Part shown: in pieces, positions 2,152 to 29,708 of the stretch | Layout: the number at the start of each line of letters is the position of its first letter | Numbering within the stretch: position 1 is the first letter of the stretch | Origin: Candidatus Sigynarchaeum calidifontis | Lineage (GTDB): Archaea; Asgardarchaeota; Lokiarchaeia; Sigyniarchaeales; Sigyniarchaeaceae | Assembly: GCA_030587475.2 (NCBI GenBank) | Contig: JAUQYZ020000268.1 | Location: forward strand, 1-40,161 | DNA: 40,161 nt | Direction: 5' to 3' | The notes under the pieces: generated by a model | The model's database searches: none | Told to the model about the DNA's origin: nothing | What the model saw: only the letters and a program-made list of their open reading frames with translations | Translations under genes and position numbers: made by a program

Positions 2152-4950
2152 TCATCCTTGCTTGGCGGAAAGGTGCCTCGCTTGAACTAGCCGAACGATG
2201 TCGAGAGCGACGATGCCCACGAGCACGGAACCTGCGATCCTGAGCCAATCGATCCAATCGAGAGGGACGAGCTCGAAGATCCCGGCTGCGTCGACTTCGT
2301 AAATGATGAAGAGTTGCAGTCCAAACGCGAGGCCGACCGCGAGTAGCAGATACTTGTTGTTAATTGGCGAGTGCCGCCAGACGCTTTTCCCGTCCGGAAC
2401 GCGGGTCACGAACACGACCCCGAGCTCGAAGAGAACCGACGCCGTGAGTGCCACTGTTCTCGCGTGCATCAATTTCGTGACGAACTCCGGGTTTGGGTAT
2501 CCACCTAAAACCGGCTCGATCCCGACAGGATAATATGCCGCATAAAGTAACAACGTGGCGAAGAACGCGATGATACCGCCAACGATTGCAAATAGTAAGA
2601 TTTCATGAAGCAGCGAAGCACCCTTGCCACGCGGTTTTCTTTTCATGATGCTCGGGTCGCCTGGGTCGACAGCAAGGGCCATTGCAGGTAGACCATCCGT
2701 GAGTAAATTGATCCAGAGAATTCCTAGTGCCGTAAACGGGGAATTCCACCCAAACACGACGGTCGCAACAAAGACGACGAAGATCTCGTCGAAATTGCTC
2801 GATAACATGAACCGGATGAATGCCTTCATGTTGTCATAGATCTGGCGTCCTTCCTCGACCGCCGAGATTATGGTTGCGAAGTTGTCATCAGCAAGAACCA
2901 TGTCCGCGGCACTCTTGGCAACATCGGTACCCGTTATGCCCATCGCGATGCCGATGTCCGCCTTTTTCAGCGCGGGCGCGTCGTTCACCCCGTCTCCGGT
3001 CATGGCGACGACTTGATTGTAATCTTTTTGCAACGTCTCCACGATGCGCGCCTTTATAGACGGGGATGCCCGTGCGCACACGTCCAGGTCCTTCATCACC
3101 TTCTTGAACTGGGCATCATCCATGGCTTCCAACTCAGCCGCAGTGAAGCAAGTATATTCCGCGTCCTCGTACGGCTTGAGGTCGAGGGCCTTGGCAATCG
3201 CGAGAGCCGTGTTCTTTTGATCGCCCGTGATCATGATGATGCGGATGCCCGCGTGCTTTGCTGTTGCGATGGCATCTGCAACCTCCTCGCGAGGCGGATC
3301 GATCATCGCTGCCAAACCGAGGAAGGTCATGTTCTTCTCGGTCGATTCCACCGTGTATTCTTCCAGGGTATCTGGCAACTTGCGCTTGGCCATACCGAGC
3401 ACGCGGAACGCCTTGTCTGCAAGGCTCTTGTTGGTTGCAAGGATTGTCTGGAGCATCTTTTGATCGAGAGCGACGATCTTGTCGCCGATCTGCACGCTGT
3501 CACATGTATCGAGGACGCTTTCTGGGGAGCCCTTCATAAAAGCCATCGTGCCCTCGCTTCCGGGCATGCGGGATGTGTAGACTATCGTCATGCGCTTCCG
3601 TTCGCTATCGAAGAAGATCTCGCCATTTGGTTTGGGATCCGTCTGCTCGTCCCACGTCACCTTGTAGGAGGTCTTCATCGCGGCGACGACGAGCGCACCT
3701 TCCGTGGGATCCCCCTCGCAGTGCCATGCGTTGTCCTTTGACGAGTATTGGATAGTCGCCGTGCTGGCCAAGAATCCCGCCTTGAGCAACTCGAGCAAGT
3801 CTCTCTCGTCGTCGATCGCCAATTGCTTGCCATCTTCGACGGTAATGAAATTCCCCTTGGGCACGTAACCGATCCCGGTCACCTCGACCATGCCCTTCGC
3901 GGGGGTCCAGAGGCGCTGCACGGCCATCTTGTTCTGCGTCAACGTACCGGTTTTATCCGTGCAAATGACTTGAACGCTGCCCAAGGTCTCGACCGCGGGC
4001 AGCTTTCGCACGATGGCACGCTTGCGGGCCATGCGCTGGACTCCAAGGGCGAGCGTGAGCGTGATGGCCGCGGCAAGGCCCTCGGGAACTGCCGAAACCG
4101 CAAGGGCGATCGATGTCTCGATGACTTCGGGAATGTTCGCATCCATATGGATAAGGAATTCAGCGATCATGACGAAGAAAACGATGACAATAACAAGGAT
4201 GCCAAGAAATTTGCCTAATTTCTCCAGCCGTTCTTGGAGCGGGGTTTTTTGCTCGGCGGATTCGATCGTGGCCTTGGCGATCTTGCCCATCTCGGTGGCC
4301 ATGCCCGTCCTCACGACGATTGCTTTACCACGCCCCTTCACCGTGGTCGTGCCCATGAACGCCATGTTCTTCTGCTCGGCGAGCATCACCTTTCCTTCAT
4401 TGATGATGCTGGAATTCTTGTCAACGGGAACAGATTCGCCCGTTAAGATACCTTCCTCGACTTTCAAGCGACTGTCCTCGAAAATCCGTGCATCTGCACC
4501 GATGGTCTCGCCTTCCCACATCACGAGGATGTCCCCGACGACGATGTCCTTGATATCCACGCGGGTCTCGTTCCCGTCACGGATCACGAGCGTGTCGTCC
4601 CCGGCGAGTTCCTTCAGCTTCTTGAGGCTTTCCTCGGCCCGGTGCTCTTGCACGAAGCCGAGCACGCCATTCAATATCACGATGATAACGATAACGAATC
4701 CCTCGACAAAGTCCCCGAATGCGAACGAAATGACCGCGGCGATCAACAGCAAGATGACTAGGAAGTCCTTGAATTGCAAGAGAAACTTCACGATCGGCGG
4801 TACCGTCTTCTCCTCGGCGAGCTCGTTGGGGCCATATTTCTCCAGCCGCCGCTTTGCCTCCTCCGAGGACAAGCCGTGCTGCAACGACGTTTCGAGCTCC
4901 TTGGCGATGTCGCCTGGGCTCTTTGCATAATAGAAGGTAGTGGTTGACAT
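2152..4950 (-). CDS. P-type cation ATPase, type IIA (SERCA-like Ca2+ ATPase)
   Basis: Motifs TGES, PEGL, DKTGTLT, KGSPE, MITGD and GDGVND are present. M5 SSNFDE, M6 WINLLTDGLPA and an M8 Glu (VLFELG) match SERCA Ca2+ ligands. Confidence 0.93.
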   Translation of the reverse strand: MSTTTFYYAKSPGDIAKELETSLQHGLSSEEAKRRLEKYGPNELAEEKTVPPIVKFLLQFKDFLVILLLIAAVISFAFGDFVEGFVIVIIVILNGVLGFVQEHRAEESLKKLKELAGDDTLVIRDGNETRVDIKDIVVGDILVMWEGETIGADARIFEDSRLKVEEGILTGESVPVDKNSSIINEGKVMLAEQKNMAFMGTTTVKGRGKAIVVRTGMATEMGKIAKATIESAEQKTPLQERLEKLGKFLGILVIVIVFFVMIAEFLIHMDANIPEVIETSIALAVSAVPEGLAAAITLTLALGVQRMARKRAIVRKLPAVETLGSVQVICTDKTGTLTQNKMAVQRLWTPAKGMVEVTGIGYVPKGNFITVEDGKQLAIDDERDLLELLKAGFLASTATIQYSSKDNAWHCEGDPTEGALVVAAMKTSYKVTWDEQTDPKPNGEIFFDSERKRMTIVYTSRMPGSEGTMAFMKGSPESVLDTCDSVQIGDKIVALDQKMLQTILATNKSLADKAFRVLGMAKRKLPDTLEEYTVESTEKNMTFLGLAAMIDPPREEVADAIATAKHAGIRIIMITGDQKNTALAIAKALDLKPYEDAEYTCFTAAELEAMDDAQFKKVMKDLDVCARASPSIKARIVETLQKDYNQVVAMTGDGVNDAPALKKADIGIAMGITGTDVAKSAADMVLADDNFATIISAVEEGRQIYDNMKAFIRFMLSSNFDEIFVVFVATVVFGWNSPFTALGILWINLLTDGLPAMALAVDPGDPSIMKRKPRGKGASLLHEILLFAIVGGIIAFFATLLLYAAYYPVGIEPVLGGYPNPEFVTKLMHARTVALTASVLFELGVVFVTRVPDGKSVWRHSPINNKYLLLAVGLAFGLQLFIIYEVDAAGIFELVPLDWIDWLRIAGSVLVGIVALDIVRLVQARHLSAKQG

Positions 4951-14206: not shown

Positions 14207-15457
14207 TTAATGGCTCCCGGGCGGGAATATCGCGCCCCAAGCACGTGCGTGTTTCGGGATGTTGCTCCGCTGGCAATCGGGATTGATCGTGCCATCGGCC
14301 ACCGCGAAATAATACGGGATGATCTGGAGGATCGGCACGGCGAGCAGCGCGAAGATGTACTCGTTCTTCGTCGGGACGCGCACGACGTAATCGACCTGGT
14401 CCGCGATGACGTGCTCGTCCGCATCCACGATTGCCACGGCTGGTGACTTGAGCAAGGTGGTTACCTGGGCCACTTGCTGGAGCCATTTCTCGTGGGGGGA
14501 TCCCGGCGGGGCGATGATGAACGTCACGATGTTCTCGTCCGTGAGGCCGAAGACCCCATGCAGGTGACGCGTCGGGCACATGGGCTGTGCAGGCATGCTG
14601 GCCATCTCGTTGAACTTGAGCGCCATCTCCTCTGCCGAGCCGATGTTGGGGCCGCCGCCAACCACGAGAACCGCCCGCTTCTTGCAGAACCGCTGGGCGA
14701 TGCTCCACGCGCGCTTGTCCCACGCGTCGAAGTTGGCTGCCATCACCTTCGGTGCCGCCTTGAGCTCGGCGAGCAGCGCGTCGAAATCGTGCGTCTTGGG
14801 TTGCAGCAATTTACCCAGCTTGAACGACAGCAAGAACCCCGCGGCGATGCGGGTCGCATAGTGGAAAGTGTCCGAGCCGCCCGTGTCCATCCCACCAGCG
14901 CAAACGATTGACTCGGTGCATTTTTGCGTGATCGGGCTGCCCGCGATCGATGTAAACGCGACCGAGTAGGCACCCTTGTCTTTTATCAATTGCGCGGCGG
15001 CATTCGTGTCGAACGTCGACCCGCTGCCCGAGTATAGGAAAAACGCCGTCTTCTTGGGGTCGTACGGGATGTTTCCGAGCATGAACTCGGTGGAATCGAC
15101 ATGCCATGACTGGATCCCGCAATGGCGCACGAGGGACGCGGCGATCACCATGCCGACAAAAATGCTGGTCGGGAGCCCGACGTTGATGACTTGCGTGATG
15201 CCCCGCTTGGCAAGCTCCGTCGCGATGCGCGTGGTGATCTCGTCAGTTATTTCAAGTGTCTTGCCGACCGCCTCCGGCTCCGACGAGATGTCCCGGTATA
15301 AATTGAATGGGTGCTTCGTCTTTGGCTCCGAGTTGAGCGCCTTGTACATGACGGGGTATTCGGACGTGGCCTCGAGATCTGCCCGGTTACCAAAATCGAA
15401 CTTCTTGCGTTGCTTCTCATCCAAGACCTTCTTCGCTTGTCCATCATCTTTCGACAT
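14207..15457 (-). CDS. double-SIS-domain sugar-phosphate isomerase/deglycase (GlmS-C/FrlB/AgaS-like)
   Basis: DISSEPE, SGSGST.D, AFTS..GSPI, GGGPN...AEEMALKFNE and HLHG motifs. It has no glutaminase domain. Confidence 0.85.
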   Translation of the reverse strand: MSKDDGQAKKVLDEKQRKKFDFGNRADLEATSEYPVMYKALNSEPKTKHPFNLYRDISSEPEAVGKTLEITDEITTRIATELAKRGITQVINVGLPTSIFVGMVIAASLVRHCGIQSWHVDSTEFMLGNIPYDPKKTAFFLYSGSGSTFDTNAAAQLIKDKGAYSVAFTSIAGSPITQKCTESIVCAGGMDTGGSDTFHYATRIAAGFLLSFKLGKLLQPKTHDFDALLAELKAAPKVMAANFDAWDKRAWSIAQRFCKKRAVLVVGGGPNIGSAEEMALKFNEMASMPAQPMCPTRHLHGVFGLTDENIVTFIIAPPGSPHEKWLQQVAQVTTLLKSPAVAIVDADEHVIADQVDYVVRVPTKNEYIFALLAVPILQIIPYYFAVADGTINPDCQRSNIPKHARAWGAIFPPGSH

Positions 15458-24881: not shown

Positions 24882-26318
24882 TTAAGGACCTTGCCAGCGA
24901 AACGTGGCGATCGACTGGCGCGGCAGCTCGAGCGCCGCGTTATGCCCCCGCCACGAAAGCGTGACGTTCAAGGGCTTGCGCCGGCGATTCACGACGATCG
25001 ACACGATCGTGCCGTCAGGATTCTTGAAGGAAACCTCGGACACCAGCAGCGGCGTGCGGGTCGTCGACGCGACCCGCATGGCTCCCCGCTGGATGAATTT
25101 CGAGAAATGGGAGATGATGTAATACTCGAACCGTGCCAGGATGCCGGGTAGCGGGAAGGCATGTTCCTTGGGAAGAAAGTCCTCGATGGCAGCCTCGGTG
25201 CCTGGCACGACCGGTTGCAAGAGCGACCGTCTCGCCTTGAAGGGACCGATGTTCGGGTTCCCGGCCGTGTCGATGAAGGGCACCCAACCCGTGTAGGACA
25301 TGCACCAGTTCTTGAAATAAGATGCGACCAGGCTTGCACCGAAAAGCCAGGGGATACTCCCTTCTGTCACGTGGAGCGACTTCGTGGGAAAATGATCGTG
25401 GAACTTGCCGAGCACGCCGGGCGTGAGAAGGCTCTGCTCGTAAGGATGAAATGCGATTCCATCCACGAACCGCGCAGCTTCGGCATCGCGCAATACCGTG
25501 AACGGATATTTGTACGGCTTGAGAAAGCCCCAGTTGTGATCGAAGCACCAGATCCGCGTGGCCAAGCCGGCCTTCTCGATCTTGGGGCCGAGGTGATGCT
25601 TGATGAAGTCCCGCTCGTTCTCCGCGTCCCACCAGCACGTGGGCATCAAGTACCAGTTATGATGGGGTTCATTCTGGACGGTCATGGCGTGGATATCGAT
25701 GCCTTCTGCCTTGTAGGCTTGCAAGTACCGCACCAGGTACTCTGCATACGCGTCGTAGTAGGCCGGGTTCAGCTTACCGCTACACATGCCCTTGCCGCCT
25801 TCGACCTCCACCTTTCCCTTCCGAAACTTCCCCCCGGGCAGTTTCATCCACCCGGGCGGGCTCCAGGGCGACGAGAAGAACAAGATGCCCGGGTTGATCT
25901 CCTTTGCCAACTTGGCGACAGGGATGATGTATTGTCTATCTTTCTCGATCGAGAAGCGCTTCAGTTCCGGGTCGATTTCTCCCGCGGGCATGTCATCGTA
26001 TGAATAGAATTCATAGGTAAAATCCGGGGTGCCGATGCAGAGCCGCCACAAGTTCATTCCAGCGCCTTTCACGGGATCGACGAGCAATTCCAGCACTGCC
26101 CGGCGCTTGTCAAGCGGCAGTTGCATGAGGTTATAGCAGCTGGTGTGCTCGAAGCTGTAGCCGATGCCCAGGACGTCCTGGTACGTTTTCGTCTCGTCGA
26201 CCTTGATTTCCAGCCCACGATGCGCTGGTGATTGGCGATCCGCGAATTCGAGCGGATCCATGCGCTTCAAGCAATAACCCTTGAGCCTCGTCGAGAGATA
26301 GACTTCGATGGAGGTCAT
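24882..26318 (-). CDS. GH30 glycoside hydrolase (glucosylceramidase-like)
   Basis: TYQDVLGIG, YSYDD, SSPWSPPGWMK, TVQNEP (acid/base), FDHNW, AFHPY, VTEG (nucleophile) and HFSKFI motifs. The start was moved to ATG 26318. Confidence 0.92.
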   Translation of the reverse strand: MTSIEVYLSTRLKGYCLKRMDPLEFADRQSPAHRGLEIKVDETKTYQDVLGIGYSFEHTSCYNLMQLPLDKRRAVLELLVDPVKGAGMNLWRLCIGTPDFTYEFYSYDDMPAGEIDPELKRFSIEKDRQYIIPVAKLAKEINPGILFFSSPWSPPGWMKLPGGKFRKGKVEVEGGKGMCSGKLNPAYYDAYAEYLVRYLQAYKAEGIDIHAMTVQNEPHHNWYLMPTCWWDAENERDFIKHHLGPKIEKAGLATRIWCFDHNWGFLKPYKYPFTVLRDAEAARFVDGIAFHPYEQSLLTPGVLGKFHDHFPTKSLHVTEGSIPWLFGASLVASYFKNWCMSYTGWVPFIDTAGNPNIGPFKARRSLLQPVVPGTEAAIEDFLPKEHAFPLPGILARFEYYIISHFSKFIQRGAMRVASTTRTPLLVSEVSFKNPDGTIVSIVVNRRRKPLNVTLSWRGHNAALELPRQSIATFRWQGP

Positions 26319-26379
26319 ATGGATAGTAACGATGCTGACACGACTAATAAAAGCGATGCTGGAAAAAAGGGAGAAGATA

Positions 26380-26446
26380 CCTGGCCCGCCGTGGCTAGAC
26401 ACCGGGCACGGGACCTCGCCGGGTTTGCATCCCGTGCCTGGCCAGG
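26380..26446 (-). promoter_or_regulatory. nested stem-loop in the 3' UTR of the selenoprotein gene (candidate SECIS element)
   Basis: mRNA CCUGGCC-A-GGCACGGGA-UGCAAACCCGGCGAGG-UCCCGUGCC-...-GGCCAGG forms a 9-bp inner and a 7-bp outer helix starting 8 nt after the stop. No canonical AUGA/GA quartet is visible. Confidence 0.45.
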
Positions 26447-26454
26447 ATGCGAAT

Positions 26455-26931
26455 TCACTTGTTGAGACCATCGAGCACCGCGAGTATCGCGTCGTTTTTC
26501 GGGATATCAGACATGGAATCACCGAAATACGCGTACCGGATGATGCCTTGCTTGTCGGCGACAAGGATCGCTGGCATCCGGCCGAGCTTGCTGATAGCGA
26601 CTTCCTGGTGCAATTCTTTCACGACGGTCTTTTTCTGGTCAAAATATATCGGGATCTGACAATCATCGCATGTTGATGCGAGTTTTTTTGCTCCATTCTC
26701 ATTATCAACAAGGATCGGGACGAGTACCGCGTTTGCCGCCTCGAACTTGCCACGATCCTTGTTTAATTGGCGCAGATGCGCTTGACAATAGGGTCATAGC
26801 TTGTTCCGCAGCAAAACGACCACCACGTTCTTGGATCCCTTGAACGAATCCAAAAGAACGTGCCGTCCACCGATACCGGGCAACTCGACCGTGCCGATTG
26901 GCTTCCCGACCATGGAATACTTGTCCTTCAT
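26455..26931 (-). CDS. peroxiredoxin-like (AhpC/TSA, thioredoxin-fold) selenoprotein, UxxC motif
   Basis: Manual translation: MKDKYSMVGKPIGTVELPGIGGRHVLLDSFKGSKNVVVVLLRNKL-TGA-PYCQAHLRQL...LVPILVD...IPIYFDQKKTVV...GRMPAILVADKQGIIRYAYFGDSMSDIP...LNK*. The TGA at 26794-26796 is codon 46, at the redox-active position. Confidence 0.88.
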
Positions 26932-27053: not shown

Positions 27054-29708
27054 ATGTCTCAAGATGAACATCACAGTGGAAGGCAAGATCCCATGAAAGA
27101 TGGAGGCGCTTTTGGCGCGTGGTCATGGGACGACAATGCTTTGCCCGCGTTCGAGTATTATTGCAAGGAATTCGAGGAACAAGCAGCAAAATACTTCACC
27201 ACGTGGGGCTACGACAACACCCATTACCACTTGCTAGGGAACGGGTGTTGGTTCGGCATTGCTACCAATCACGGGCAGGTCTACTTGATCGACCCCCGCC
27301 GCGGCTTCACGCTCGTCGGGGGGGATCCCGGCGTTACGATACCCGCCCGATCGAGCCTCGTGACCTTCGGCATCGAGGACCAGGACGGGACTGCATGGAA
27401 GGATATCAACACGGCCAGCAGCCAGCCACTCACGCGCCGGGTGTTTGGCGCTGGCTATTACCAGAAAGGGATCGACGCCGGTGCCTTGCACATCTCCTCG
27501 AAAGTGTCATTTCCGTCGGGTGGTGATCCTGTCATCGTGGCCGAATGCATCGTTGAAAATAAGACGAACGAGCCGAGGCAAATCCGACTGGAATCCTCAT
27601 GGAACCTCTTCCACTTGCCCTTGAGCAAGTCCCTCATCGTCAGCTGGAATGGTCGCAAGAAGTATCAGAACAAGGGAATCCTGGACGGGTTGCTCCGCTT
27701 TGCCGTCGCGTTACAAAAACTCGTGATGGCCGATACGGATGGCGCGAGACGCAAGCACTCCGAAGGTATAACATTCACGTTCTCCGAATCTGGATCCAAA
27801 GTGATCGCCATTCCCCGCCACAAGGATGCGGGCAAGCATGATCCGATGGAGCCATCGGGCATAAATTACCATTACAAGCCAATGGCCGTCGCGTGCATCG
27901 ACGATCATCCCGTACCGGCGAAGATTGTTGCAAGGATCCCAGATGGGCAACATGGGCAACGATTGGTGCCCAACGCGGACGCGCGGGTTGTCATGGCATG
28001 TGATATCGAGGTTCCTGCGAAAACTGCCATAACCAAGCGGTTCTTGCTTGCATGCGCCGCGAAGGATGAACTCGATCCTTTGATCGAGAAATACGTGGCC
28101 CTTTCTCGCAGCGGGGGCATGCAAGCGGCGTCATCCGCGTGGTTCAAGGATCGTACGGTTTCCCTCGACGTGCCCCGCATGCAATGGTTAAAGCGCGAGA
28201 TGGCTTGGCACTGCGTCTACGTGTTATCATCGATATTCGCCGACGATTATCACGGGTTTCACCGCGTCCCGCAAGCCTCCACTTATTTACTCGGCCATGG
28301 ATTCGATGGTTCCATCAGGGATTTTTGTTTGTTCTTGTTTCCACTCGCGTTCATGGATCCGGTTCTCGCACGCGAGTTCTTGAAGTTTATCTATACTTGT
28401 ATCGACGAGAAAGGCAAGATCACGTATGCACTTCACGGGTTCGGCATGAAACTCGTCGTTCCCGGAATTCACGAGAACCCGTCGGACCAGTATTTCTTCG
28501 TGATATGGGCAACCGCGGAATACGTTTTCCTCACGAGGGATTTCCAGCTCCTGGACGAGCTAATTCAAATCGAGGGCCGCAATGATAACAAAAAACATTT
28601 GCCCGTCAAGGAATTGCTCGTGCGTCTAATCAAGTACGCGATGTCTCCGGAGATCGGTCTCGGCGAACACGACATGGTACGCGTCCGGGACGGGGATTGG
28701 AATGATGGCATCTCCCTCATGGCAAAGAATCGCAAGGACTTCATTAAAGCGGGCGAGTCAACGTTCAACTCGGCAATCTTGCTGCTCTCGTTTACAAAAA
28801 TATTGCCGCTTATCGAGAGATTTGATTCTGCCCTAGCGCGGGAAATGGAATCGATGCTGGGGCGTGTAAGCCGAGCCGTGGACACGGCGTGGAACGGCAA
28901 GTGGTACTACCGGGGGTACGATGGCAAAGGAAATCCGCTTGGCAACGAGACGCTCTTCCTCGATCACCACGCCTGGATGCTCCAAAACCGGGCATTACCC
29001 GCGGACAAGATCAGCGTGCTGTTGGAACATCTCAACAAGGTGCTCGTAGCAAAATCGAGATGTGGCGCCGCGATCATGCACCCGCCGAACCCGAAGTCAT
29101 CCATCCTCCCGCCAGGTTGGGACATCAACGGCGGGACATGGCACGCGCTGAACTCGCTGCTCGCGTGGGGGCTTCGAATCCGGAGCCCGAACACGACTCT
29201 GGATTTCCTCCAACGCATGAGCATGCACAACCGTGCAGAGCAATACCCGCAGATCTGGTATGGTATTTGGAGCGGGCCTGATTCCTACAATGCAGATGAT
29301 GCCGAGAGGCCGGGCGAGGCTTTTTTCCATGCCTCCACGCCCATGTGCGATTTTCCTTTCATGAATAACAATCTTCACGCGGGGTTCATTGCCGCTGCCA
29401 TCCGGTACGCCGGGATAGAAGCTTGTCACGACAAGCTGCGCGTGGATGTTACCGCCAGTGTTCCATTCACGTTCACGTCTCGCATCATGAACATCAAGAA
29501 AGAAGCAACTTCGATAGAAATCGAACCAGGATGCTCGTTCAAGGAGCCAATAACGATAGAAATCGTGGTTCCGGAAGATTTCAAGACTACCGCGCAGATC
29601 CGCGTGGAACCGGCTAGCGAAAGCTCTCCGACGGTCGTGGAGGGGGTCGCGCGCGTCGAGTGGTCGCCCGAGCGGCCCATTCACAAGATCACGATCACGA
29701 AGGTTTAA
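27054..29708 (+). CDS. GH94-like (alpha/alpha)6 glycoside phosphorylase/hydrolase
   Basis: IRDFC, SDQYF, DGDWNDG, GESTF, WNGKWYYRGYD and NGGTW motifs resemble the cellobiose phosphorylase-family catalytic domain. Substrate unknown. Confidence 0.78.
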   Translation: MSQDEHHSGRQDPMKDGGAFGAWSWDDNALPAFEYYCKEFEEQAAKYFTTWGYDNTHYHLLGNGCWFGIATNHGQVYLIDPRRGFTLVGGDPGVTIPARSSLVTFGIEDQDGTAWKDINTASSQPLTRRVFGAGYYQKGIDAGALHISSKVSFPSGGDPVIVAECIVENKTNEPRQIRLESSWNLFHLPLSKSLIVSWNGRKKYQNKGILDGLLRFAVALQKLVMADTDGARRKHSEGITFTFSESGSKVIAIPRHKDAGKHDPMEPSGINYHYKPMAVACIDDHPVPAKIVARIPDGQHGQRLVPNADARVVMACDIEVPAKTAITKRFLLACAAKDELDPLIEKYVALSRSGGMQAASSAWFKDRTVSLDVPRMQWLKREMAWHCVYVLSSIFADDYHGFHRVPQASTYLLGHGFDGSIRDFCLFLFPLAFMDPVLAREFLKFIYTCIDEKGKITYALHGFGMKLVVPGIHENPSDQYFFVIWATAEYVFLTRDFQLLDELIQIEGRNDNKKHLPVKELLVRLIKYAMSPEIGLGEHDMVRVRDGDWNDGISLMAKNRKDFIKAGESTFNSAILLLSFTKILPLIERFDSALAREMESMLGRVSRAVDTAWNGKWYYRGYDGKGNPLGNETLFLDHHAWMLQNRALPADKISVLLEHLNKVLVAKSRCGAAIMHPPNPKSSILPPGWDINGGTWHALNSLLAWGLRIRSPNTTLDFLQRMSMHNRAEQYPQIWYGIWSGPDSYNADDAERPGEAFFHASTPMCDFPFMNNNLHAGFIAAAIRYAGIEACHDKLRVDVTASVPFTFTSRIMNIKKEATSIEIEPGCSFKEPITIEIVVPEDFKTTAQIRVEPASESSPTVVEGVARVEWSPERPIHKITITKV

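What the first reader, a model, noticed from the sequence alone, without database searches (positions are those of the whole stretch)
26455..26931. Hidden selenoprotein: peroxiredoxin-like gene with in-frame UGA (U-P-Y-C) missed by the ORF track
Reading TGA 26794-26796 as Sec gives an uninterrupted 158-aa thioredoxin-fold AhpC/TSA-like protein. The TGA sits at the first position of the CxxC-equivalent motif, right after the beta-strand VVVVLLR, and 112 sense codons of coherent Prx-like sequence follow. Lokiarchaeia are known to encode selenoproteins, so recoding is more likely than pseudogenisation. The terminal stop is also UGA, so the cell must distinguish two UGAs in one mRNA.
Basis: partly seen in the sequence, partly recalled or inferred. 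Interest (0 to 1): 0.8.

Follow-up and report, generated by a model that had tools for sequence, protein, structure and literature searches.

The report
Known Prx-like selenoprotein gene, Lokiarchaeon

Summary
On the minus strand, ATG 26931 to TGA 26455 reads as one 158-residue AhpC/TSA-fold protein if TGA 26794-26796 (codon 46) is decoded.

- The same codon is TGA in all of about 190 orthologous loci, never TGG or TGY. These come from Loki-, Jord-, Frey-, Atabey-, Borr-, Hermod-, Thor-, Hod- and Odin-labelled assemblies.
- dN/dS downstream of the UGA is 0.11.
- The genome holds tRNA-Sec, a Sec-containing SelD, SepSecS, an EFSec-like factor and a probable PSTK.
- TGA is otherwise the commonest stop codon.

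The family is the published PrxL / Prx-like selenoprotein (Mariotti 2016; ISME J 2024). The same-genus ortholog is listed in the 2024 supplement, so novelty is low.

One part is less ordinary. The only structured element between the stop codon and the oligo-T tract is a three-armed RNA at 26380-26446. Its helices covary and its third arm carries an invariant UAGCCA loop. It occurs only behind prxL genes and lacks the AUGA..GA kink-turn core that hdrA's signal in the same genome has. Earlier runs of this scan reached the same reading on other genomes, so it is not new to the scan.

The terminal UGA lies 8 nt before this RNA, probably too close to be recoded.

The parts
26455..26931 (-). prxL coding sequence, 158 codons plus terminal TGA; Prx-fold thiol/selenol oxidoreductase
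   Evidence: AlphaFold2 model has pLDDT 90.3. Peroxiredoxin fold matches have TM 0.80-0.84.
26794..26796 (-). UGA codon 46 = selenocysteine, first position of the U-P-Y-C redox box, immediately before helix 47-58
   Evidence: TGA at the aligned codon in about 190 loci. Secondary structure.
26785..26787 (-). Cys49 codon, second position of the redox box. It aligns with the peroxidatic Cys of BCP/PrxQ peroxiredoxins and is replaced by Ala/Ser/Thr in one orthologous clade.
   Evidence: UPYC/UPFC versus UPYA/S/T; alignment to 2ywn.
26455..26457 (-). Terminal UGA, read as stop; 8 nt separate it from the first base of the 3' UTR structure
   Evidence: Orthologs end at the same place, mostly with UAA.
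26380..26446 (-). Three-armed 3' UTR RNA, the probable SECIS. P1 26440-26446 pairs with 26380-26386. P2 26429-26438 pairs with 26405-26414, with a 14-nt loop GCAAACCCGGCGAG. P3 26398-26401 pairs with 26387-26390.
26391..26397 (-). P3 loop UAGCCAC. UAGCCA is invariant in the 64-row A3 set; a few loci outside that set differ. It is the only sequence the GC-rich window shares with AT-rich orthologs.
   Evidence: (invariant columns).
26363..26368 (-). Oligo-T tract 12 nt after the structure, a likely archaeal transcription stop. Similar T-runs follow the element in orthologs.
   Evidence: read directly from the sequence; function inferred.

Best explanation
This is a functional selenoprotein gene, a member of the Asgard PrxL (peroxiredoxin-like thiol:disulfide oxidoreductase) family.

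Shown:
- The reading frame continues through UGA46 under purifying selection.
- The UGA is fixed in all orthologs.
- The genome has the archaeal/eukaryotic Sec pathway: tRNA-Sec, SelD, a PSTK-like gene, SepSecS and EFSec.
- The protein models as a peroxiredoxin fold, with Sec46 at the N-terminal cap of the helix that carries the active site. Arg118 is invariant in the family and lies in the GRMP motif, which aligns beside the conserved peroxiredoxin Arg.

Inferred:
- EFSec with Sec-tRNA(Sec) is brought to UGA46 by the three-armed RNA that begins 347 nt downstream in the 3' UTR.
- Sec46 is the attacking nucleophile. It forms a selenenylsulfide with Cys49, which a thioredoxin-type reductant resolves. 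A clade with U-P-Y-Ala and no other Cys shows that Sec alone is the indispensable residue.
- The terminal UGA is not recoded because it lies 8 nt from the structure. A ribosome paused there would already be melting or covering helix P1.
For: - Frame and family.
- UGA conserved in 40 of 61 genomes of the same order, every full-length hit with exactly one TGA, at the same aligned codon.
- Invariant residues after the UGA.
- dN=0.16, dS=1.45, dN/dS=0.11 for codons 47-158 against the same-genus ortholog; differences by codon position 20/14/52.
- Sec machinery.
- TGA ends 1609 of 2886 long ORFs in the genome, so it is not reassigned.
- Fold.
- Published family: PMC4989117. PMC11227280 supplement file 79 lists the same-genus ortholog GCA_016932935 with X at this position.
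- 3' UTR element: 18 of 22 pairs have compensatory changes; 91.5% of cells are paired versus 33-57% when partners are slid.
- In the window all three helices are re-written in G+C yet still pair.
- The model R1, built without the window, gives its only hit in 3 kb at 26377-26449 (weak: 9.8 bits, E=0.66).
Against: - There is no protein-level or 75Se evidence.
- The PSTK candidate scores below the curated cut-off (103 versus 290 bits), and EFSec falls 0.6 bit short of the bacterial selB cut-off.
- The 3' UTR element lacks the AUGA..GA core that published Asgard SECIS models treat as defining. Its role as the SECIS rests on position, exclusivity and conservation, not on a test.
- The substrate is unknown. 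The neighbouring genes are glycoside hydrolases and give no functional hint.
Confidence: 0.95

Rival explanations
1. It is a pseudogene: a TGG or TGY codon mutated to TGA in a decaying peroxiredoxin gene.
For: Table 11 ORF calling breaks the gene. Public databases hold only 88-103-residue C-terminal fragments of the closest relatives.
Against: The same TGA is present in about 190 independent loci down to 41% identity. dN/dS after it is 0.11. No other frame disruption is present.
Confidence: 0.01
2. TGA is read as tryptophan, or is otherwise generally reassigned, in these organisms, as the W in full-length database homologues suggests.
For: Twelve database proteins are 156-178 aa long; the seven I fetched have W at the site, e.g. 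..SKSWPYAKAH...
Against: P0016, which has W, is 96% identical to the product of L042, whose codon is TGA. Not one of about 190 loci has TGG there, although TGG and TGA would alternate if they were synonymous. TGA is the commonest terminator of long ORFs in this genome. A tRNA with anticodon UCA of tRNA-Sec type is present.
Confidence: 0.01
3. The TGA is a sequencing or assembly error at one base.
For: The genome is a 269-contig assembly, 89% complete with 5% contamination.
Against: The site is in the middle of a 40-kb contig. The identical codon occurs in the same-genus genome and in independent metagenome contigs that are 84% identical.
Confidence: 0.01
4. The gene is a real selenoprotein, but the three-armed RNA is not its SECIS. 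It could be a terminator or stability element or a regulatory protein site, with recoding driven by something else.
For: There is no AUGA..GA core: the strict pattern hits 8 of 132 UTRs versus a shuffled mean of 4.0 and maximum of 9. An oligo-T tract follows directly.
Against: It is the only conserved structure between the stop codon and the T-tract in all lineages. It has the same arm order as the hdrA SECIS of this genome. It occurs only behind Sec-encoding prxL genes in 60 related genomes and only once in this genome.
Confidence: 0.12

Closest known systems
PrxL (Prx-like) selenoproteins of Lokiarchaeota / Asgard archaea (Mariotti et al. 2016, PMC4989117; 'Prx-like thiol:disulfide oxidoreductase' of the 2024 ISME J Asgard selenoproteome paper, PMC11227280)
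   Same: Same fold family, with Sec at the first position of a UxxC redox box and a 3' UTR signal. The same-genus ortholog (GCA_016932935, 77% identical) and another 81%-identical sequence (GCA_012798355) are printed in the 2024 supplement with X at this residue.
   Different: This exact sequence is not in the lists I could read. Mariotti et al. state that PrxL proteins have no Cys outside the redox box. This protein and its GC-rich relatives carry an extra C88-D-D-C91 pair.
BCP/PrxQ and AhpE/Prx6 peroxiredoxins (solved: 2ywn, 3drn, 3hjp, 6q5v, 1xxu)
   Same: Same fold, TM 0.80-0.84. Profile match 7e-10 to 2ywn. The family's invariant Arg118 (GRMP motif) lies beside the conserved Prx Arg in the 2ywn alignment (my reading). 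Cys49 aligns with the peroxidatic Cys.
   Different: The defining P-x-x-x-T/S-x-x-C motif is replaced by R-x-x-x-U-x-x-C. Sec sits where the Thr is. One clade has lost the Cys that aligns with the peroxidatic Cys.
SelL / SelL-related redox proteins (NCBIfam NF040769)
   Same: It is the best NCBIfam match: a Prx-like thioredoxin-fold protein with a selenium redox box.
   Different: The score is 48 bits against a cut-off of 120, so it is not a member by the curated threshold. From my own knowledge, SelL has UxxU; this protein has UxxC.
lokiSECIS / Asgard type I eSECIS-like element (PMC4989117, PMC11227280)
   Same: It sits in the 3' UTR next to the stop codon. [quoted passage not shown] The arm order is the same as in the hdrA signal of this genome.
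   Different: There is no AUGA before the main stem and no GA after it. The third arm carries an invariant UAGCCA loop, which the papers I could read do not mention.

Membership tests
Selenoprotein (UGA decoded as Sec) | In-frame UGA conserved among orthologs, with coding conservation on both sides | tested here: met
Selenoprotein (UGA decoded as Sec) | Sec synthesis and insertion genes in the same genome (tRNA-Sec, SelD, PSTK, SepSecS, EFSec) | tested here: met
   The PSTK candidate is below the curated cut-off but has no better family.
Selenoprotein (UGA decoded as Sec) | Cys-containing homologues at the Sec position | tested here: inconclusive
   No TGY codon was seen at this site in about 190 close orthologs. 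Distant Prx/Trx relatives have Thr or Cys there. The literature reports Cys forms of Prx-like proteins.
Selenoprotein (UGA decoded as Sec) | Selenium in the protein | not testable with these tools
   This needs 75Se labelling or mass spectrometry.
Asgard PrxL / Prx-like selenoprotein family | Prx-like thioredoxin fold with U-x-x-C in place of T/S-x-x-C | tested here: met
   Definition from PMC4989117.
Asgard PrxL / Prx-like selenoprotein family | Sequence orthology to listed members | tested here: met
   77% identity to the listed GCA_016932935 sequence, which is L022/L051.
Typical peroxiredoxin (Prx) | P-x-x-x-T/S-x-x-C active-site motif | tested here: not met
   The motif here is R42-x-x-x-U46-x-x-C49.
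lokiSECIS / eSECIS-like type I | AUGA (or GUGA) directly 5' and GA/AA directly 3' of a 7-15-bp stem (kink-turn quartet) | tested here: not met
   Window: A before and CGG after the main stem. Across 132 unique prxL UTRs the pattern is at shuffle level, while hdrA and a second gene of the same genome are found by the same scan.
lokiSECIS / eSECIS-like type I | 3' UTR position close to the stop codon, a stem of about 9 bp and an A-rich apical loop | tested here: met
Euryarchaeal SECIS (GAA_A bulge) | GAA_A internal bulge between two G+C-rich stems | tested here: not met
   No such bulge appears in the fold or the parse. Rfam gave only a sub-threshold chance match.

The most novel reading that the evidence does not exclude
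prxL mRNAs across the nine Asgard-labelled lineages sampled use a distinct SECIS class. It is a three-way junction that lacks the kink-turn (AUGA..GA) core and depends instead on a third arm with an invariant UAGCCA loop. If so, the still-unknown archaeal recoding factor (or EFSec itself) would recognise something other than a kink-turn. The papers I could read do not describe this, but I could not see the supplementary SECIS alignments of Mariotti et al. 2016. Earlier runs of this scan have already reported the same element on other genomes.
Probability: 0.45. Interest if true: 0.55.

Novelty: already known. Interest (0 to 1): 0.2.

Why it matters
For annotation, this is one more case where standard gene calling truncates an Asgard selenoprotein to a 103-residue fragment, or mis-prints Trp at the Sec site. 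Anyone using "Trp in homologues" as a test against Sec would be misled.

Biologically the gene adds nothing new to the published Asgard selenoproteome. The GC-rich lineage of this window is still useful as a natural compensatory-mutation experiment. Every helix of the 3' UTR element is re-written while the UAGCCA loop is kept. That points to the loop and the junction geometry, not the kink-turn, as what matters for this gene's recoding signal.

Tried and rejected
1. Rfam scan of the region gave only sub-threshold chance matches and no SECIS family.
2. RNAalifold on a plain MAFFT alignment that included the GC-rich rows recovered only the outer helix. A cleaner alignment with a structure I supplied was needed.
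3. Model R1, built from AT-rich orthologs, found nothing in the window or the whole genome with default filters. With filters off it gave a weak hit (9.8 bits, E=0.66) at the right place. The model is biased by composition.
4. I considered that the kink-turn core is circularly permuted to the top of the main stem, because many loops read GAAAA..AUGA. I rejected this. The window's loop does not fit the pattern. The loop resembles canonical apical loops. The hdrA signal of the same genome has the same arm order with the core at the base.
5. I looked for a k-junction reading, with G.A pairs at the base of the main stem. The positions are Watson-Crick or G.U pairs.
6. I looked for complementarity of UAGCCA to tRNA-Sec. 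There is only a 5-nt match (UGGCU) in the variable arm, which is within chance, and I did not follow it up.
7. Two weak R1 hits away from prxL (G060, G036) lie in or behind unrelated ORFs without any UGA and are false positives.

Full report
**Observation.** On the minus strand an ATG at 26931 opens a frame that meets TGA at 26794-26796 (codon 46) and ends at TGA 26455-26457. Under table 11 the ORF list shows only fragments of 45, 44 and 55 aa. Read through, the 158-residue product matches Pfam AhpC-TSA (3.3e-15, residues 8-133) and Redoxin (6.5e-11). The coordinates and the description are correct.

**Is the UGA decoded?** Three independent lines say yes.

- *Conservation.* A six-frame search of 61 genomes of the same order found the gene in 40. 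Every full-length match carried exactly one TGA. I extracted 31 genes from these loci. In all of them the TGA is at the same aligned codon, in the motif R-x-x-x-U-P-[YFH]-[CAST]-[KRQ]-x-H. The same holds for 79 loci from one-genome-per-species contigs labelled Promethearchaeota (Lokiarchaeota), Jord-, Frey-, Atabey-, Borr-, Hermod-, Thor-, Hod- and Odinarchaeota. It also holds for 80 of 80 metagenome contigs. No locus has TGG, TGC or TGT there.
- *Coding constraint after the UGA.* An alignment of 21 proteins has 26 invariant columns. Twenty of them lie downstream of the UGA. Against the same-genus ortholog, codons 47-158 give dN 0.16, dS 1.45 and dN/dS 0.11. Differences fall 20/14/52 over the three codon positions.
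- *Machinery.* The genome (269 contigs, 4.99 Mb, 89% complete) has the following components.
  - A tRNA-Sec: 67.5 bits, above Rfam's cut-off, and called tRNA-SeC(tca) by ARAGORN.
  - A selD gene that itself contains one in-frame TGA.
  - SepSecS at 473 bits against a cut-off of 225.
  - A 476-residue EFSec-like factor whose best family is selB. It scores 241.6 bits, with EF-Tu far behind at 158.
  - A protein whose only family matches are the two PSTK models, below their cut-offs.

**Rivals.** A pseudogene or a base-calling error cannot explain a codon fixed in about 190 loci. A general TGA reassignment is excluded because TGA ends 1609 of 2886 stop-to-stop ORFs of 300 aa or more in this genome.

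One trap deserves a warning. Twelve hits in the large protein collection are 156-178 aa long; the seven I fetched print W at the Sec position. One of them is 96% identical to the product of locus L042, where the codon is TGA. None of the DNA I could read has TGG. These W residues are therefore almost certainly TGA=W gene calls on short contigs. The closest database entries are 88-103-residue C-terminal fragments named "hypothetical protein" or "peroxiredoxin". This shows how gene callers normally truncate this gene.

**What the protein is.** An AlphaFold2 model from the 21-row alignment is confident, with mean pLDDT 90.3 and pTM 0.88. It matches solved peroxiredoxins (Prx6, BCP, AhpE) at TM 0.80-0.84. 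A profile search of solved structures finds BCP-type peroxiredoxins of Sulfolobus and Aeropyrum first (7e-10 to 1e-8), followed by thioredoxin-family proteins, a Prx6-type peroxiredoxin, AhpE-type peroxiredoxins and ResA.

- Strand 35-41 (VVVVLLR) leads to Sec46, which caps helix 47-58.
- In the alignment with 2ywn, Sec46 falls on the Thr of the peroxiredoxin T-x-x-C motif, and Cys49 falls on the peroxidatic Cys.
- The invariant Arg118 of the GRMP motif lies beside the conserved peroxiredoxin Arg in that alignment (my reading).
- The protein therefore has a peroxiredoxin fold with a thioredoxin-like redox box. This is exactly how Mariotti et al. define "Prx-like" proteins.
- A whole orthologous clade reads U-P-Y-Ala/Ser/Thr. 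The members I read in full have no other cysteine. Sec is thus the one indispensable redox residue. The selenenylsulfide with Cys49 that I propose for the window's protein is an inference.
- The neighbours are a GH30 and a GH94-like glycoside hydrolase and give no functional clue.

**Comparison with what is known.**

- Mariotti et al. 2016 reported PrxL as one of five selenoprotein families of Lokiarchaeota.
- The 2024 ISME J survey found Prx-like selenoproteins in 43.2% of Sec-using Asgard archaea.
- A 2021 paper reports a peroxiredoxin selenoprotein in Sif- and Jordarchaeia.
- The supplement of the 2024 paper prints the same-genus ortholog (GCA_016932935, my L022/L051, 77% identical) and a second close relative with X at this very residue.

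The finding is therefore correct but already known. At most it is one more ortholog. A small difference is the extra Cys88-x-x-Cys91 pair, found only in the window's GC-rich family.

**The 3' UTR.** Between the stop codon and an oligo-T tract (26363-26368) there is one structure, at 26380-26446. It is a three-way junction made of the following parts.

- Outer helix P1: CCUGGCC/GGCCAGG.
- Main hairpin P2: 10 bp with the loop GCAAACCCGGCGAG.
- Third hairpin P3: 4 bp with the loop UAGCCAC.

AT-rich orthologs have the same three arms with entirely different helix sequences (GAUUUGG/CCAAAUC, GAAUAAAAU/AUUUUAUUC, AAGU/ACUU) and the same UAGCCA loop. The evidence for the structure is as follows.

- On 64 distinct sequences, 18 of 22 pairs show compensatory changes. 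91.5% of cells pair, against 33-57% when partners are slid. No shuffle in 500 reaches the observed values.
- A covariance model built without the window's lineage hits 32 places at E of 7e-10 or lower in the 60 related genomes. All those I compared with the coordinates lie directly behind prxL. The two weak extra hits are false.
- In the window the model finds only this site, and only with filters off and weakly (9.8 bits, E=0.66). The model is biased toward A+T.
- A structural scan of all 1147 TAGCCA sites in the genome finds no second good example.

**Relation to the published SECIS.** The lokiSECIS is described as AUGA, a 9-bp stem, an 11-nt A-rich loop ending in AG, then GA. The 2024 models keep the GA_[G/A]A quartet as defining.

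- The same genome has textbook examples: behind hdrA (C153:14294-14328, AUGA-9 bp-CCAAAGGCAGC-9 bp-GA, overlapping the UGA stop) and behind a second gene on C14.
- When folded, the hdrA element also shows an outer helix and a third hairpin on the 3' side.
- The prxL element therefore has the same arm order as hdrA's signal, but the bases flanking P2 are ordinary (A before, CGG after).
- Over 132 unique prxL UTRs the strict core pattern occurs in 8, against a shuffled mean of 4.0 and a maximum of 9. Those 8 are alternative registers.
- I first considered a circularly permuted core at the top of P2. I dropped the idea because the window does not fit it and the comparison with hdrA explains the layout more simply.

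Earlier notes of this scan, on other genomes and on hdrA of this genome, reached the same "three-armed, core-less" description. I treat them as leads. My own tests agree with them. The scan has therefore found this before on other DNA. I could not read Mariotti's supplementary alignments, so "undescribed" stays provisional.

**The two UGAs.**

- The Sec codon lies 347 nt upstream of P1. The terminal UGA is separated from P1 by only 8 nt.
- In orthologs the terminal codon is mostly UAA, for example 62 of 79 metagenome loci. Where it is UGA (13 of 79) it often overlaps the first bases of P1. PMC11227280 notes such overlap for Lokiarchaeial SECIS elements in general.
- The simplest explanation is inferred, by analogy with the minimum UGA-to-SECIS spacing known for eukaryotes (my own knowledge). 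A ribosome at the terminal UGA already occupies or unwinds the signal, so release factor wins.
- If it were read through, the next in-frame stop is the UAG of the UAGCCA loop (26395-26397). This is a coincidence of this locus.

**Verdict.** The family and near-identical orthologs are already published, so interest is low. The core-less three-armed signal is the only part that may go beyond the literature, and it has already been reported by this scan elsewhere.

Noticed in passing
G000 contig C153, 12177-14357 (+); SECIS 14294-14328: This is hdrA with an in-frame UGA (..DDCSI-U-ILGP..). Its UGA stop codon overlaps the AUGA of a textbook lokiSECIS (AUGA, 9 bp, CCAAAGGCAGC, 9 bp, GA). Folding also gives an outer helix and a third 3' hairpin with loop AGCAA.
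   Followed up: partly
G000 contig C14, about 2381-3274 (-); SECIS 2411-2447: An open frame ends in ..TTDPGC-U-U-HKFEERMN.., with two adjacent UGA codons. A GUGA-type canonical SECIS overlaps its UGA stop. I did not assign a family.
   Followed up: no
window 26659-26670 (-), residues 88-91: There is an extra C-D-D-C pair (STCDDCQIP) in this protein and its GC-rich relatives L022 and L023 only. It is absent from the 18 other aligned orthologs, and Mariotti et al. say PrxL proteins have no Cys outside the redox box. It may be a second redox or metal site.
   Followed up: no
database proteins P0006, P0010, P0011, P0014, P0016, P0019, P0020: Full-length public translations of this family print Trp at the Sec position. 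This is almost certainly because short metagenome contigs were gene-called with a TGA=Trp table. It is a trap for Sec-versus-nonsense tests.
   Followed up: partly
L052, L102, L121 (genome contigs); L202 (metagenome): prxL loci sit in MAGs labelled Bathyarchaeota, Nanopelagicaceae and Anaerolineae. L052 and L102 carry the Asgard three-armed UTR and look like mis-binned Asgard contigs. L121 and L202 (..TRGFL-U-PYCRAH) have a different, G+C-rich 3' region without UAGCCA and may be a truly different lineage.
   Followed up: no
L036/L107 (P. syntrophicum MK-D1), L098 (L. ossiferum), L133: In the Promethearchaeum and Lokiarchaeum genera the third-arm loop reads (G)UGCCC(A/U) instead of UAGCCA. In some Jord/Frey loci it reads UAGCAA or UUCGCCA. 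The loop is therefore not absolutely invariant outside the main set.
   Followed up: partly
window 24885-26318 (-) and 27054-29705 (+): The flanking genes are a GH30 glycoside hydrolase and a GH94-superfamily protein. prxL appears to be a stand-alone transcription unit between them.
   Followed up: partly
L001 1497-1589 (-), tRNA-Sec: The variable arm contains UGGCU, which is complementary to the AGCCA of the third-arm loop. A 5-nt match is within chance (about 9%). Its conservation in other genomes was not checked.
   Followed up: no
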